From a virus (lineage: Duplodnaviria > Heunggongvirae > Uroviricota > Caudoviricetes): a stretch of 8,050 bases of DNA. Below, in pieces: positions 1-8,050 of the stretch (position 1 is its first letter; each line of letters opens with the position of its first letter). The notes under the pieces are model-generated. The model did no database searches. It saw only the letters and a list, made by a program, of their open reading frames with translations, and was not told the origin of the DNA. The position numbers and the translations under genes are program-made. The stretch covers positions 1 through 8,050 of the IMG/VR virus record IMGVR_UViG_2695420855_000011; one strand, given 5' to 3'.

Positions 1-239
1 TCAGTTTTTAGCCAGAGCGGTGACGGCATTGTCGAGTTTTTGCCATCCGCAATAGGTGATTGCTCTGAATGCTGTTGCGCCATTCTGGAAAAGGCTAACC
101 GCTCCTGATTCGGTTTTTATTACCGCCTCATCAGTTGGAGTTATAACCGTGGCTTCAACGTTAATAATCAGCTTTTGAGCGTCTATCAGCATCATGCGAT
201 CCGCCTGTTCGCTCACAATTACCGGTATTCTCAAAAGCT
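1..239 (-). pseudogene. 3'-terminal fragment (about 79 codons) of an HK97-fold major-capsid-like gene; exact copy of 4450..4688
   Basis: Bases 1-239 are identical to 4450-4688 and diverge at 240 (a) versus 4689 (c). The minus-strand frame gives the same C-terminal 77 aa as the 308-aa ORF at 4450..5376. No 5' part or start codon; an in-frame TAG (plus 238-240) sits immediately upstream at the point of divergence. Confidence 0.6.
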
Positions 240-349
240 AAGAAAAAAGCCACCCGCATAATTTCAGATATTGACGAAAGCGCATCAGCCGCATCATCAG
301 GAACGCCGGAAAATTCTTGTTTCAGGGAATTAAAACGATCATCACGCAT
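161..349 (-). CDS. Small hypothetical protein; only the first about 36 codons (240..349) are unique sequence, the 3' end reads out of frame through the repeat copy
   Basis: ATG at 349 is preceded by a G-rich SD (minus strand GGGGAGGGGGGG then tt then ATG). The ORF crosses the 239/240 repeat boundary, so its C-terminus is probably non-native. It overlaps the end of the upstream ORF. Confidence 0.3.
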   Translation of the reverse strand: MRDDRFNSLKQEFSGVPDDAADALSSISEIMRVAFFLAFENTGNCERTGGSHDADRRSKADY

Positions 350-567
350 AACCCCCCCTCCCCATTTTCACAATCAGCAACAAGAATATTTTTAGCGTCA
401 TTCAGCGACCGCGTGGCGGTGTATCGGATACATTCCAGGGCGAACAATGTGTATTCTTCCCGTTCTTCCTTTTGTGCAAGCCCTGCTGTGCATTCAATAT
501 CAATAAGCGCATGCATCAGCGTAGTGAGCGCGGCGGCTGCTGCGTCCGGTGTGGTTTTATTGCACAT
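322..567 (-). CDS. Hypothetical 81-aa protein, translationally coupled to the Icd-like gene
   Basis: ATG at 567 is preceded by CAGGAGG with a 6-nt spacer. The start overlaps the stop of the Icd-like ORF (minus strand ...CCATGTGCAATAA). No family recognised. Confidence 0.5.
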   Translation of the reverse strand: MCNKTTPDAAAAALTTLMHALIDIECTAGLAQKEEREEYTLFALECIRYTATRSLNDAKNILVADCENGEGGLCVMIVLIP

Positions 568-1117
568 GGCACACCTCCTGACGAATACGGGCGGCGAATA
601 CAGCAACACAACCGGACGGGCAACGGCTACGTGCTTCGCGTTCCGTCCAGGCGGTTACGTGGATGATTTGATGTTCTGACGCGCCAAAGATGATAAAGCG
701 CCAGAGAAAGGCGGTTTGAGAATGTACAAGGGTAGGGATAGTAGCCATGTTGGCAGCCTCCTCAGTGTGGTTAAGATAACCGCCACCGGAAACGCCAATT
801 TCGCTGGTGGCGGACTGTACAGGGTTGGCGTAACCGGACACTGAAGAAACCGGCGCGGATTGCTCCGCCCCCGTACAGCCCACCATTGATAAGGTGTGAC
901 TATGCGGCACAAAAAAACACGCGGGGCGCGTGTTATGCGCTTCAGTTTTGCCCAGGACGCCAATCCCGGCACCCGTTTTATGAGGTGCGCGGGAATCATA
1001 GCTATTTTCGACACTGGCGATCAACTGGTTTTTTTCTCCGATATTCAGGGCCAGAAAACGCCACACAAAGGCCGTTTGTGTGTGTACAAGGTGTGGTATA
1101 TGATTTACGGCAACCAT
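557..1117 (-). CDS. Tandem (two-domain) Icd-like small protein, 186 aa as one frame; the second domain (557..748) has its own ATG and strong SD
   Basis: ATG at 1117 is preceded by AGGAG with a 5-nt spacer. Two paralogous segments share the pattern hydrophobic-H-x-Q-T-A-F-x-W-R-F (MVAVNHIPHLVHTQTAFVWRF... and MATIPTLVHSQTAFLWRF...). This resembles proteins annotated as host cell division inhibitor Icd-like in enterobacterial prophages, recalled from memory and not verified. There is no stop between the two copies. Confidence 0.45.
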   Translation of the reverse strand: MVAVNHIPHLVHTQTAFVWRFLALNIGEKNQLIASVENSYDSRAPHKTGAGIGVLGKTEAHNTRPACFFVPHSHTLSMVGCTGAEQSAPVSSVSGYANPVQSATSEIGVSGGGYLNHTEEAANMATIPTLVHSQTAFLWRFIIFGASEHQIIHVTAWTEREARSRCPSGCVAVFAARIRQEVCHVQ

Positions 1118-1146
1118 AACGGCTCCTAGTTTACGTTGTTGGTTAG

Positions 1147-1180
1147 ACGCCCCGTATGTGTTCCCAGCACTGCGGGGCGT
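1147..1180. promoter_or_regulatory. Hairpin (8-bp GC-rich stem ACGCCCCG / CGGGGCGT, 18-nt loop) in the leader region of the Icd-like operon
   Basis: Inverted repeat at 1147-1154 and 1173-1180, followed on the plus strand by a T-rich tract 1181-1190. It lies about 30 nt upstream of the Icd-like start on the minus strand. Confidence 0.3.
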
Positions 1181-1205
1181 TGATTTTTGTGTAATGGCAA
1201 GTACA

Positions 1206-1247
1206 ATGGTAATTACCATGTAGGTATAGTAATGAAGGGTAATTACC
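1206..1247. promoter_or_regulatory. Two palindromic operator-like sites sharing the core GGTAATTACC, between the divergent arc-like and icd-like genes
   Basis: A perfect 14-bp palindrome ATGGTAATTACCAT at 1206-1219 and a 10-bp palindrome GGTAATTACC at 1238-1247, the latter directly abutting the ATG of the Arc-like gene. A TATAGT -10-like hexamer lies between them at 1225-1230. Confidence 0.45.
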
Positions 1248-1421
1248 ATGTCAACACCATTAGAAAAACGTTCGCCTCCATACCAAATGCGATTACCGGA
1301 AGACTTCAGAGCGCAGCTAGAAGAAGCAGCTAAGGCCGATGGCGACACATCTTTAGCCACTTGGATTAAACGCGTTCTCCGCAAAGAATTACAGCAACGC
1401 GGCATAGAACCCAAAGGATAA
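1248..1421 (+). CDS. Arc/MetJ-type ribbon-helix-helix DNA-binding protein, 57 aa
   Basis: Own translation: MSTPLEKRSPPYQMRLPEDFRAQLEEAAKADGDTSLATWIKRVLRKELQQRGIEPKG. It shows the RHH pattern (beta-strand YQMRLP, helix A, G-D-T-S turn, helix B). It is below the length cutoff of the supplied ORF track and sits right after the palindromic operators. Confidence 0.75.
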   Translation: MSTPLEKRSPPYQMRLPEDFRAQLEEAAKADGDTSLATWIKRVLRKELQQRGIEPKG

Positions 1422-6511: not shown

Positions 6512-6598
6512 TTTGTTTTCTCCTGATACTTATCATTGCATAACCAGTATTTTCGATAGATTATCATTAATTAACCATCTTTGAAGATATATGAGATC

Positions 6599-6624
6599 GA
6601 AAAAAAGCCGGATTGCTCCGGCTA
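6599..6624 (-). terminator. Canonical rho-independent terminator
   Basis: Perfect 7-bp stem AGCCGGA / TCCGGCT with a 4-nt loop at 6607-6624, adjacent to AAAAAAA at 6600-6606 (a U7 tract on the minus strand). It lies 18 bp past the stop of the ORF at 6642..6887. Confidence 0.65.
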
Positions 6625-6641
6625 TGTGCTCACTTCTTCGG

Positions 6642-6887
6642 TTATTCTCCAGCGCTTTTAACGTTGATGGTTGTTACCTGTTCCGCTTCGGCAATCTCCC
6701 GTTCTGTCAGCGTGGCAAAGTTTGCCGCCGCTGTGGTCATGAATGCGCTTATCAGTTCGGGATGCTCCTTCGCGTATCCTTCCCCCGCGTGGCGGTCTAT
6801 CGTTCTGATTGCCACCTTTAAGGAAAGCTCTGTCATGTCTAACGCTTTATATTTTGGCGCTGTCTTATCTCTGGTTTTTCTGTTCAT
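6642..6887 (-). CDS. Hypothetical 81-aa protein immediately downstream of the putative origin
   Basis: ATG at 6887 with GGGGAG about 9 nt upstream (within the iterons). No family recognised; an alternative internal start at 6836 is possible. Confidence 0.4.
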   Translation of the reverse strand: MNRKTRDKTAPKYKALDMTELSLKVAIRTIDRHAGEGYAKEHPELISAFMTTAAANFATLTEREIAEAEQVTTINVKSAGE

Positions 6888-6888
6888 T

Positions 6889-7090
6889 CCCCACTACTCC
6901 CCACTTTTGCTCCCCACTTTTTGAAATTACCCACCGTCTCCCCACCTCTTTTTTTTGTGATTCTAACGTTATGTTTTTCAATATGTTTTTTACTCCCCAC
7001 TTTTTTGGGTATATACAGGTGGGAAAGTGGGTAATTATGTTTCAATTTTGTTAAATTCCCCACTCCCCCCACTTTTACTCCCCACTTTTT
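6889..7090. repeat. Iteron array (TCCCCAC-TTTT; about 9 direct and 2 inverted copies) flanking a 44-bp AT-rich stretch; putative replication origin
   Basis: CCCCAC-type copies at about 6889, 6898, 6912, 6930, 6940, 6995, 7058, 7067 and 7079; inverted GTGGG at 7019 and 7027; AT-rich core 6947-6990. It directly follows the helicase gene stop. Confidence 0.55.
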
Positions 7091-7626
7091 ACAGCGGGCG
7101 CACGTCATCACCGTCAATAACGATTACGCCATCATTTTCCAGCTTGTACAGCCAGCGCCGGAAGTGCTTCATCTCATACCCCAGCTTTTTCATATCGTCG
7201 CGGAGAAGGGCGATAGTGCACGCCTCCCCGTGTGCTGTTCGTGTTCTGATGCACTGCCATAGCGCGGCGTGATTCTCCGTCTTGTTCCCTGCCTCCTCGA
7301 TGCGCTCCAGTTCAACGGGAGGGCGCGGCTTATCCACCACCACCAGCGACGTGATTAACTCCCCGTCAGCGTCGGTAAAAAGCTCCACCACGCGTAAGTC
7401 ATATGCTGCTTCTTTGAGTTCCTCCGCGTCCTTCATTTTGGTACATGAGATAACCAGCGCTTCGCTGCCTGCGTCCTCCCTGCGTATCCGGTATTCGGCG
7501 TCCAGTGATGCACGAAATGCACTGGAACCACGCGCCCCCTTTGTTTCATCCTTGCCGGAATGGTGAACCACCAGCACCGTTGCCCCTGTGCGCCGTTTCA
7601 GTTCGTCACACCCACGGATAAACGCC
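7089..7626 (-). pseudogene. 5'-truncated replicative helicase gene (RecA-fold, AAA_25/RepA-like C-terminal region plus a putative winged-helix tail)
   Basis: Frame encodes ...TGATVLVVHHSGKDETKGARGSSAFRASLDAEYRI..., the h-h-h-h-H-H-x-x-K / G-x-x-G-S-S-A motif region of RepA/AAA_25-type helicases. The frame is open up to the repeat junction at 7626/7627, with no Walker A region or native start. Confidence 0.6.
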
Positions 7627-8050
7627 ACGGGAATACATATTTATCCAGCGAACGCCAGATGTCTTTAATCGTGTTGGGGGCCAGATTCTGGCTGATTTTC
7701 ACCTGGTACCATGCCGCCGCCACATTTTCGAACGTGTTCCCTTGTCTTCGGGCCTCTGTCTCTCTTTTTTGCCTCTCGTGGTCCTGCGGGTCAGTTCCGG
7801 CACTGATTAACGTCCTGTACTCGCTACGGCGTTTTCTGGCATCAGCCAGGGAAACATCTTCAAGCGATCCAAAACTCAGCAATATTCTTTTTTTGTCCGA
7901 TGGTCGGTAGTAGGAAAATCTCCAGAGTTTTGATCCAGACGGTTTGACCAGGAGAAAAAGCCCTCCGCCGTCCTGCAGGGTGTACTCCTTTTGCGCTGGT
8001 CTGGCTGCTTTGATCTGCACTGTGGTTAATGGGTGTGTTTTTCTCGCCAT
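7598..8050 (-). pseudogene. Integrase 5' fragment (first about 141 codons, exact copy of 3322..3745) with a 9-codon novel tail
   Basis: Bases 7627-8050 are identical to 3322-3745. The frame runs from the integrase ATG (8048-8050) through the junction and ends as ...KYVFPWRLSVGVTN then stop at 7598. The window ends exactly at the start codon, so the upstream region is not visible. Confidence 0.7.

What the first reader, a model, noticed from the sequence alone, without database searches (positions are those of the whole stretch)
1..8050. Two exact long direct repeats end inside genes, giving a mosaic of two complementary partial elements
1-239 equals 4450-4688 (the capsid-like gene 3' end) and 3322-3745 equals 7627-8050 (the integrase 5' end). 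Both identity blocks stop abruptly within coding sequence: at 239/240 the capsid 3' fragment is joined to a small ORF, and at 7626/7627 the integrase N-terminal coding region is joined to a helicase gene lacking its 5' half. Module A holds integration and regulation genes (int, alpA, arc-like, icd-like); module B holds replication and packaging genes (helicase, iterons, terS, capsid-like). This is the layout expected if an ancestral int-alpA-...-rep-ori-terS-capsid island sits in a tandem array that suffered internal deletions or unequal recombination. A collapsed-repeat assembly artefact must be excluded.
Basis: partly seen in the sequence, partly recalled or inferred. Interest (0 to 1): 0.75.

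Follow-up and report, generated by a model that had tools for sequence, protein, structure and literature searches.

The report
Scaffold gaps mimic a rearranged phage satellite
The two long repeats are real in the window, but both "abrupt junctions" are single-N scaffold gaps in the only public record with this layout, so the mosaic of two half-elements is most likely an assembly artefact around an ordinary E. coli phage satellite (PICI) at tRNA-Pro.

Summary
In detail: 1-239 = 4450-4688 and 3322-3745 = 7627-8050, both exact. The gene calls also hold (integrase, AlpA-like, Arc-like, Ash/Icd region; RepA-helicase 3' half, iterons, terS, capsid-like).

The window is the reverse complement of positions 7327-15376 of locus L008. 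L008 comes from a 628-kb scaffold of a draft E. coli assembly (GCA_001285965.1, CYDF01000001.1). The two sequences differ at only two bases, and both are a single N in the record. Those Ns sit at window 240 and 7627, which are exactly the two junctions. They are the only Ns in 20.9 kb.

Neither junction occurs in 5,426 complete E. coli genomes. J1 was absent from the GTDB representatives, and J2 from those, IMG/VR and JGI metagenomes. The window versions of the junction-spanning ORFs are not on record.

Hundreds of genomes carry the intact colinear 8.7-kb element between tRNA-Pro(ggg)/yejM and yejO. The window lacks only a 1.5-kb piece of it (DUF4222 and the helicase 5' half), where short-read contigs often break. 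Every other unique segment appears once.

The junctions are therefore unresolved scaffold joins, not demonstrated deletions. The attP-type junction (3746-4449) is contiguous sequence. It indicates a tandem or an excised circular copy in the sequenced DNA. Low interest.

The parts
1..239 (-). Second copy of the last 239 bp of the capsid-like gene. It is the inner end of the scaffold piece that runs on to attR and yejO.
   Evidence: Identical to 4450-4688. In L008 the identity continues outside the window for 720 bp in all, up to the att core.
240..240 (.). Junction J1. This base is a single N (scaffold gap) in GCA_001285965.1; the window shows A.
   Evidence: One of only two differences between the window and L008 (L008 position 15137 = N). 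A query spanning J1 matched no complete E. coli genome over 80% or more of its length, and J1 has no exact match in the GTDB representatives. The window version of the 62-aa ORF spanning J1 is not on record; translating the record's own sequence gives an X at the N codon.
322..567 (-). 81-aa ORF of unknown function, the last complete gene before J1.
   Evidence: phrog_5146, E = 1.9e-15. Called as a gene in L008.
557..1117 (-). Ash-family protein ORF. The region also holds C4 antisense RNA (803-890) and an isrK-like RNA (912-988).
   Evidence: PF10554, E = 3.3e-17. Rfam RF01695 at 77.6 bits and RF01394 at 66 bits. RefSeq annotates Ash and Icd-like genes here in O26:H11.
1248..1421 (+). Arc-like repressor, 57 aa, on the opposite strand to the other genes.
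   Evidence: phrog_228, E = 1.5e-6.
1801..2007 (-). AlpA-like excisionase/regulator, 68 aa.
   Evidence: PF05930 at 17.9 bits, below the 21-bit cutoff. phrog_2790 and phrog_66, 'excisionase and transcriptional regulator', E = 2.5e-6.
2504..3745 (-). Complete tyrosine integrase, 413 aa.
   Evidence: Arm-DNA-bind_3, Phage_int_M and Phage_integrase domains. The exact protein is listed in 14,623 blocks of the public collection. In the ten places shown it heads an intact island, nine next to yejM and one inside a prophage.
3746..4449 (.). attP-type junction: P' arm (3746-3968), 10-bp core GGCACGAGAG (3969-3978), P arm (3979-4449). Positions 3964-3978 are the 3' end of tRNA-Pro.
   Evidence: The left side equals attL and the right side resembles attR of O26:H11. 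The core is shared by attL, attP and attR of L008. Six CGTATAAC octamers flank the core, with 0 of 200 shuffles reaching six. This is contiguous sequence with no N. No complete E. coli genome holds it.
4450..5376 (-). Capsid-like protein, 308 aa.
   Evidence: PF05065, E = 1e-6. phrog_10 'major head protein'. Annotated as phage major capsid protein in RefSeq.
5536..6024 (-). Small terminase subunit, 162 aa.
   Evidence: PF03592, E = 1.2e-10. phrog_641, E = 2.6e-43.
6878..7090 (.). Iteron-like repeats (TTTTACTCCCCACTTTTT, three copies about 84 bp apart) directly 3' of the helicase gene; the candidate replication origin.
   Evidence: Repeat families D6 and D8. The position matches the PICI rule that the ori lies immediately 3' of the replication gene (PMC6092414).
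7089..7626 (-). 3' part of the RepA-family helicase gene. It is the end of the middle scaffold piece.
   Evidence: phrog_2850, profile positions 302-465 of 465. Aligns to the 3' part of the 466-aa helicase of the intact elements.
7627..7627 (.). Junction J2. This base is a single N (scaffold gap) in GCA_001285965.1; the window shows A.
   Evidence: L008 position 7750 = N. A query spanning J2 matched no complete E. coli genome over 80% or more of its length, and J2 has no exact match in IMG/VR, the GTDB representatives or JGI metagenomes. The window version of the 150-aa ORF is not on record; translating the record's own sequence gives an X at the N codon.
7628..8050 (-). Second copy of the first 423 bp of the integrase gene. 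It is the inner end of the scaffold piece that runs on to attL, tRNA-Pro and yejM.
   Evidence: Identical to 3323-3745. In L008 the identity continues for 656 bp to the att core inside tRNA-Pro(ggg).

Best explanation
The window is a stretch of a short-read draft scaffold (GCA_001285965.1, CYDF01000001.1) across an ordinary E. coli phage-inducible chromosomal island (PICI). The island is inserted in the 3' end of tRNA-Pro(ggg), between yejM and yejO.

The two junctions (239/240 and 7626/7627) are not sequenced adjacencies. They are one-N scaffold joins between three pieces:
- chromosome-attL plus 656 bp of island;
- a 7.4-kb middle piece that reads helicase 3' half, terS, capsid, attP, int, alpA and the Ash region;
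- 720 bp of island plus attR-chromosome.

The middle piece is the island opened at a 1.5-kb segment (76-aa ORF, DUF4222, helicase 5' half) and closed through attP. That segment is missing from the scaffold, and short-read contigs often break there.

Shown: the N positions, the uniqueness of the junctions, and the existence of intact relatives.

Inferred: a scaffolder attached the chromosomal flanks to the ends of the attP-joined piece, and a gap filler then walked each flank about 0.7 kb into the island, which created the two exact 'repeats'. The real locus is then either an intact island plus excised circles or concatemers, or a tandem of (near-)intact islands.
For: - The window equals L008 7327-15376 (reverse complement) with 8048 of 8050 matches and no gaps. 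The two differences are N in the record, at window 240 and 7627, the first base after each junction. They are the only Ns in 20.9 kb of L008.
- The junction-spanning ORFs are called in the record at the same lengths (150 aa and 62 aa). The window's versions are not on record among 153 billion gene positions. Translating the record's sequence gives an X at the N codon.
- Queries spanning J1 and J2 found no place covering 80% or more in 5,426 complete E. coli genomes. J1 has no exact match in the GTDB species representatives. J2 has none in IMG/VR, the GTDB representatives or JGI metagenomes.
- Intact colinear elements are common. 166 complete genomes cover at least 80% of the window as one 8.5-kb element, annotated in O26:H11 11368. 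L004 is 100% identical to window 4450-7626 and to 240-2380 and carries the missing 1,512 bp between them.
- Apart from the two edge duplications, every unique island segment occurs exactly once in the scaffold. The composite spans 8,772 bp, against 8,725 bp for the intact L004 element. This is what collapsed assembly gives, and it would be a coincidence for two independent deletions.
- Seven unrelated draft or metagenome contigs (L010, L011, L013-L017) start or end inside the missing segment, at L004 6718-7263. Related copies of that segment occur up to 6 times per complete genome. It is therefore a habitual short-read break point.
- A published Velvet + SSPACE + GapFiller pipeline states that these tools are greedy and can make false joins, that joins are written as N, and that gaps are then filled by many iterations of edge extension (PMC5320598; PMC3446322).
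- The two edge duplications are of similar size (656 and 720 bp) and both begin at the att core, as process-limited extension from the chromosomal flanks would give.
Against: - The window itself carries A, not N, at both positions. I do not know how that came about. Both A's equal the base that would continue the right-hand piece in the intact sequence (a 1/16 chance for a blind substitution), so a polished version of the assembly cannot be excluded.
- A scaffolder normally needs read pairs to link pieces. Pairs linking the chromosomal flank to the helicase end of the middle piece are what a real deletion would produce.
- At J2 the integrase side ends in ATTCCCG[N], and the intact helicase has ATTCCCGT 8 nt upstream of where the middle piece starts. 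That would fit a real microhomology deletion with 9 nt hidden under the N.
- I could not identify the pipeline used for this assembly, and I could not see reads, coverage or its other contigs.
Confidence: 0.85

Rival explanations
1. The layout is real. Two islands sit head to tail at tRNA-Pro. The tRNA-proximal copy has lost int-3' through the helicase 5' half, and the distal copy has lost the region from the 76-aa ORF to most of the capsid gene. The single Ns are then only uncalled bases, or a few hidden bases, at true deletion joints.
For: The scaffold order is what read pairs would support if the deletions were real and the 656-bp and 720-bp repeats had been collapsed and later gap-filled. 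An 8-nt match, ATTCCCGT, lies at or near J2. The attP junction in contiguous sequence shows that head-to-tail joined copies existed in the sequenced DNA.
Against: Real deletion joints are unique sequence and assemble without gaps, yet both carry the only Ns in 20.9 kb. It needs a tandem array, seen in none of 5,426 complete genomes, plus two independent 4.5-kb illegitimate deletions. Those deletions would have to keep complementary segments and both remove the same 1.5 kb. J1 has no microhomology above chance. The junctions are seen nowhere else.
Confidence: 0.08
2. Two different but related PICIs sit in tandem. They are identical only over the integrase 5' end plus P' arm, the capsid 3' end plus P arm, and the DUF4222-helicase segment. 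The assembler broke at these repeat boundaries, and each N hides the divergent half of one copy, which lies in other contigs of the assembly.
For: It explains why all four piece ends would be graph forks. Elements with this integrase are highly mosaic: the same exact integrase is found with RepA-helicase or D5-type primase modules, and with terS/capsid or Phage_cap_E/HDPD/Nu1 packaging modules. The attP junction is contiguous sequence.
Against: No complete genome shows any tandem at this attP. Among the loci compared, I saw no mosaic boundary at integrase nt 424 or 239 bp before the capsid stop. Divergent halves of about 3 kb should have been scaffolded in rather than replaced by one N.
Confidence: 0.07

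Closest known systems
Gram-negative phage-inducible chromosomal islands (E. coli EcCI elements; Fillol-Salom et al. 2018, PMC6092414)
   Same: Integrase at one end with a specific att site. AlpA-type regulator. A replication gene followed directly by an iteron origin. A terS homologue and a capsid-protein homologue. About 8.7 kb when intact. No tail or lysis genes.
   Different: Nothing in kind. In this scaffold the replication module is incomplete, because 1.5 kb is missing at the two N positions. Helper phage, induction and packaging were not tested.
False or unresolved scaffold joins from greedy scaffolding and gap filling of short-read assemblies (SSPACE/GapFiller type; PMC5320598, PMC3446322)
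   Same: N placeholders sit exactly at the joins. Sequence is duplicated at piece edges, consistent with edge extension. A repeat-prone segment is missing. Each unique segment is present once.
   Different: The pipeline used for GCA_001285965.1 is not known to me. That a negative or used-up gap is written as a single N is my recollection of these tools, not something I could confirm in the papers read.
Tandem arrays or excised circular/concatemeric forms of integrative elements, which carry attP-type junctions
   Same: The capsid end is joined to the integrase end through the 10-bp core, with P and P' arms. PICIs are reported to form concatemeric post-replicative DNA (PMC6092414).
   Different: Whether the junction here comes from a chromosomal tandem or from free circles cannot be told without reads. 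None of 5,426 complete genomes has it.

Membership tests
Gram-negative PICI (EcCI type) | Tyrosine integrase at one end and a specific chromosomal att site with a direct-repeat core | tested here: met
   The 413-aa integrase has three integrase domains. The island sits in the 3' end of tRNA-Pro(ggg) between yejM and yejO. The 10-bp core CTCTCGTGCC is present at attL, attP and attR of L008.
Gram-negative PICI (EcCI type) | AlpA-type regulator next to int | tested here: inconclusive
   The 68-aa ORF scores 17.9 bits on PF05930, below the 21-bit cutoff. It hits PHROG excisionase/regulator families at E = 2.5e-6.
Gram-negative PICI (EcCI type) | Own replication initiator (primase/helicase) with an iteron origin immediately 3' of it | tested here: met
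   Iterons at 6878-7090 lie directly 3' of the helicase gene. The helicase is only a 3' part in the window but is complete (466 aa, AAA_25) in the intact relatives.
Gram-negative PICI (EcCI type) | Small size (about 8-15 kb) with packaging-interference genes (terS and/or a capsid homologue) but no full virion or lysis module | tested here: met
   The intact relatives measure 8.5-8.7 kb, with terS and a capsid-like gene as the only structural genes.
Gram-negative PICI (EcCI type) | Induction, replication and packaging dependent on a helper phage | not testable with these tools
   This needs experiments.
   Both joints are N in the public record.
   Window 3746-4449 has the P' arm, core and P arm in contiguous sequence. 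Free circles would give the same junction.
   None in the complete E. coli genomes. J1 has no exact match in the GTDB representatives, and J2 none in the GTDB representatives, IMG/VR or JGI metagenomes. The exact-protein look-ups also found nothing.
Scaffold-join artefact | Gap characters at the joins, and nowhere else nearby | tested here: met
   Single Ns at L008 7750 and 15137 only.
Scaffold-join artefact | The missing sequence is a known repeat or contig-break region, and unique segments are represented once | tested here: met
   Seven other contigs end inside the missing 1.5 kb. Related copies occur up to 6 per genome.
Scaffold-join artefact | Reads fail to span the joins; coverage and pair orientation are inconsistent with the scaffold | not testable with these tools
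   There is no access to the reads or to the other contigs of GCA_001285965.1.

The most novel reading that the evidence does not exclude
Both junctions are real. The strain would then carry a tandem pair of defective PICIs with complementary halves: one keeps integration and regulation genes, the other keeps the ori, terS and capsid gene. Neither has a replication helicase. Together they could behave as a two-part satellite that excises across the outer att sites and depends on another resident PICI for replication.
Probability: 0.07. Interest if true: 0.45.

Novelty: not a real feature. Interest (0 to 1): 0.08.

Why it matters
If the mosaic were real, it would be a rare snapshot of satellite decay or of a two-part satellite. 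As it stands, its value is as a caution. A window taken from a draft scaffold in which N has been turned into a base can look like a striking rearrangement. The underlying island is a common, already described kind of E. coli PICI. The only mildly useful biological point is the contiguous attP junction. It suggests that this isolate's DNA held either a tandem or excised/replicating copies of the island.

Tried and rejected
- **Junction searches.** I looked for the junctions in complete E. coli genomes, in the GTDB representatives (J1, J2), and for J2 in IMG/VR and JGI metagenomes. None was found.
- **attP searches.** I looked for the attP junction in complete genomes, IMG/VR and JGI metagenomes. 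None was found, so tandem versus circle stays open.
- **Exact-protein look-ups of the junction ORFs** found nothing. This is explained by the N codons in the record, which translate to X.
- **Look-up of the 162-aa helicase fragment** seemed at first to give independent copies of J2. Those contigs instead carry a normal helicase 5' part, split by a 4-nt indel 20 nt downstream of the J2 position. They are irrelevant to J2.
- **Microhomology at the joints**. J1 shows only a chance-level 6-mer. J2 has a displaced 8-mer, recorded as unexplained.
- **A natural mosaic boundary around the missing 1.5 kb**. L004 and L006 are identical across it, so there is no evidence for one.
- **tRNA scan of the window** found none. 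Only the 15-nt 3' end of tRNA-Pro is present, at the attP.
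Full report
**1. Observation**

Both long direct repeats are exact: 1-239 = 4450-4688 and 3322-3745 = 7627-8050. Identity falls to chance level just inside each block. The window starts exactly at the stop codon of a capsid-gene fragment and ends exactly at an integrase ATG. 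The outer ends of the repeats are therefore set by the window.

**2. What the element is**

All genes but one lie on the minus strand. In gene order they are:
- a 150-aa integrase N-terminal fragment fused out of frame (7598-8050);
- the 3' part of a RepA-family helicase (7089-7626), followed by iteron-like repeats (6878-7090);
- small ORFs, then terS (5536-6024) and a capsid-like protein (4450-5376);
- a 704-bp non-coding stretch;
- a complete integrase (2504-3745), a 76-aa ORF, and an AlpA-like ORF (1801-2007);
- an Arc-like repressor on the other strand (1248-1421);
- an Ash/Icd region with C4 and isrK-type RNAs (557-1117), and an 81-aa ORF;
- the last 239 bp of the capsid gene again.

These calls rest. 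The content is that of a Gram-negative phage-inducible chromosomal island as defined by Fillol-Salom et al. 2018 (PMC6092414).

**3. Intact relatives**

The whole window hits 2,310 of 5,426 complete E. coli genomes. In 166 of them one place covers at least 80% of it.

In O26:H11 strain 11368 that place is a single 8.5-kb island between tRNA-Pro/yejM and yejO. Its order is int, 76-aa ORF, HTH, Icd-like, Ash, Icd-like, small ORFs, DUF4222, RepA helicase, small ORFs, terS, capsid.

Aligned to that island (L001), the window is a rearrangement:
- 240-3986 matches L001 16758-20501, from a small ORF through int to the tRNA core;
- 4382-7626 matches L001 12001-15246, from the capsid to mid-helicase;
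- 1-239 and 7627-8050 are second copies of the capsid 3' end and the integrase 5' end.

Draft genome L004 is 100% identical to window 4450-7626 and to 240-2380. Between them it holds 1,512 bp that the window lacks: a 76-aa ORF, DUF4222 and the helicase 5' half.

**4. The centre is an attP**

Window 3746-4449 has the attL-side sequence of the O26 island on its left, including the last 15 nt of tRNA-Pro. On its right it has the attR-side island arm. The two are joined at a 10-bp core, GGCACGAGAG, at 3969-3978. Six CGTATAAC octamers flank the core, and 0 of 200 shuffles reach six.

This is the junction expected for two copies head to tail, or for an excised circle or concatemer. No complete E. 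coli genome holds it. Its core junction was absent from IMG/VR (31-nt pattern) and from JGI metagenomes (27-nt pattern).

**5. The decisive result**

An exact-protein look-up of the capsid-like protein returned ten contexts. Seven show a full island, all single and colinear. Two (L010, L011) are contigs that begin inside the island. One, L008, shows the window's layout. L008 is from NCBI GCA_001285965.1, CYDF01000001.1, a 627,925-bp scaffold.

The window is the reverse complement of L008 7327-15376, with 8048 of 8050 matches and no gaps. The two differences are N in the record, and they fall at window 240 and 7627, the first base after each abrupt junction. They are the only Ns in the 20.9-kb locus.

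The record's gene calls across the junctions have the window's lengths, 150 aa and 62 aa. The window's versions are not on record. Translating the record's sequence gives an X at the N codon.

In L008 the repeats continue beyond the window to the att core: 656 bp on the integrase side and 720 bp on the capsid side. tRNA-Pro(ggg) lies at attL.

**6. Nothing else has these junctions**

A 241-nt query across J1 and a 251-nt query across J2 matched complete E. coli genomes only as separate halves. Exact junction patterns gave no match for J1 in the GTDB species representatives, nor for J2 in IMG/VR, the GTDB representatives or JGI metagenomes.

**7. Why an artefact is the better reading**

- True deletion joints are unique sequence and should assemble without gaps. 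Here both joints, and only they, are gap characters.
- Apart from the two edge duplications, every island segment is present exactly once. The composite is 8,772 bp, against 8,725 bp for the intact L004 island. That is what collapsed assembly gives.
- The only missing part is a habitual short-read break point. Seven unrelated contigs (L010, L011, L013-L017) start or end inside it. Related copies occur up to six times per genome.
- The two duplications both begin at the att core and are of similar length. This fits edge extension from the chromosomal flanks by a gap filler.
- The description of a widely used Velvet/SSPACE/GapFiller pipeline says these tools are greedy and can make false joins. 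It also says joins are written as N, and that gaps are then attacked by many rounds of edge extension (PMC5320598; PMC3446322).

I do not know that this pipeline made this assembly. That is inference.

**8. What speaks for a real structure**

- The window has A, not N, at both positions. Both A's happen to continue the right-hand piece as in the intact sequence.
- Scaffolders normally need linking read pairs.
- At J2 the integrase side ends in ATTCCCG[N], while the intact helicase has ATTCCCGT 8 nt before the point where the middle piece starts. A microhomology deletion with 9 nt hidden under the N would fit this.
- J1 shows only a chance-level 6-mer.

I give the real-deletion reading about 8%. 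I give about 7% to a tandem of two divergent islands whose other halves are hidden in the gaps.

**9. Verdict**

The gene identifications and the ancestral order are right, and an attP-type junction is really there. The "two complementary partial elements" are not demonstrated, and are most likely a scaffolding artefact that became invisible because the window shows bases where the record has N. The island itself is an ordinary, already described kind of E. coli PICI. Interest is low.

Read mapping, the other contigs of this assembly, PCR across the two joints, or a long-read assembly would settle the matter.

Noticed in passing
window 803-890 (-) and 912-988 (-): Rfam matches above gathering score to C4 antisense RNA (77.6 bits) and isrK (66 bits). 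They lie inside the ORF called Ash and next to the Icd-like annotations. This looks like a phage P1 immI-type (c4-icd-ant) control module in the island. A 46-nt imperfect repeat (695-740 and 1055-1100) flanks the two RNAs.
   Followed up: partly
window 3781-3828 and 4040-4059: Six copies of CGTATAAC lie on either side of the att core: four on the integrase side (two inverted, two direct) and two on the capsid side. About 0.2 are expected by chance. They are likely arm-type integrase binding sites.
   Followed up: partly
window 2015-2047, 3845-3877, 3919-3951: A repeated motif, ATCCGGTG-N5/6-TCCGGTGA, lies upstream of the alpA-like gene and twice upstream of int. These are possible regulator binding sites.
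   Followed up: no
window 7620-7635, and L004 7720-7750: The 8-mer ATTCCCGT ends exactly at junction J2 on the integrase side. It also lies 8 nt upstream of the break on the helicase side. This is unexplained: it may be chance, a trace of the gap filler, or a real microhomology.
   Followed up: partly
window 5788-5869 and 6045-6071: GTAACTTTT-type direct and inverted repeats lie inside and just upstream of terS. They encode a KKVT-type peptide repeat and may mark a pac site or a regulatory site.
   Followed up: no
L013-L017 (L004 coordinates 7770-7773): Several unrelated assemblies carry this helicase split into two ORFs by a 4-nt indel. This produces the same 162-aa C-terminal ORF as in the window, so decayed copies of the replication gene are common.
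   Followed up: partly
L007, L020, L022, L024-L026: The same exact integrase and att site are combined with other modules: a D5_N/DUF5906 primase instead of the RepA helicase, and Phage_cap_E + HDPD (with Nu1 in L024-L026) instead of terS + PF05065 capsid, with SSB, PerC or ProQ cargo. This shows strong modular exchange among islands at this site.
   Followed up: no
L027 (CP077491.1, O111:H11), 8419-20654: An island with the same integrase sits inside a lambdoid prophage, between the antiterminator gene and the holin/lysozyme genes, not at tRNA-Pro. It resembles the helper-embedded PICIs described in PMC10111431.
   Followed up: no
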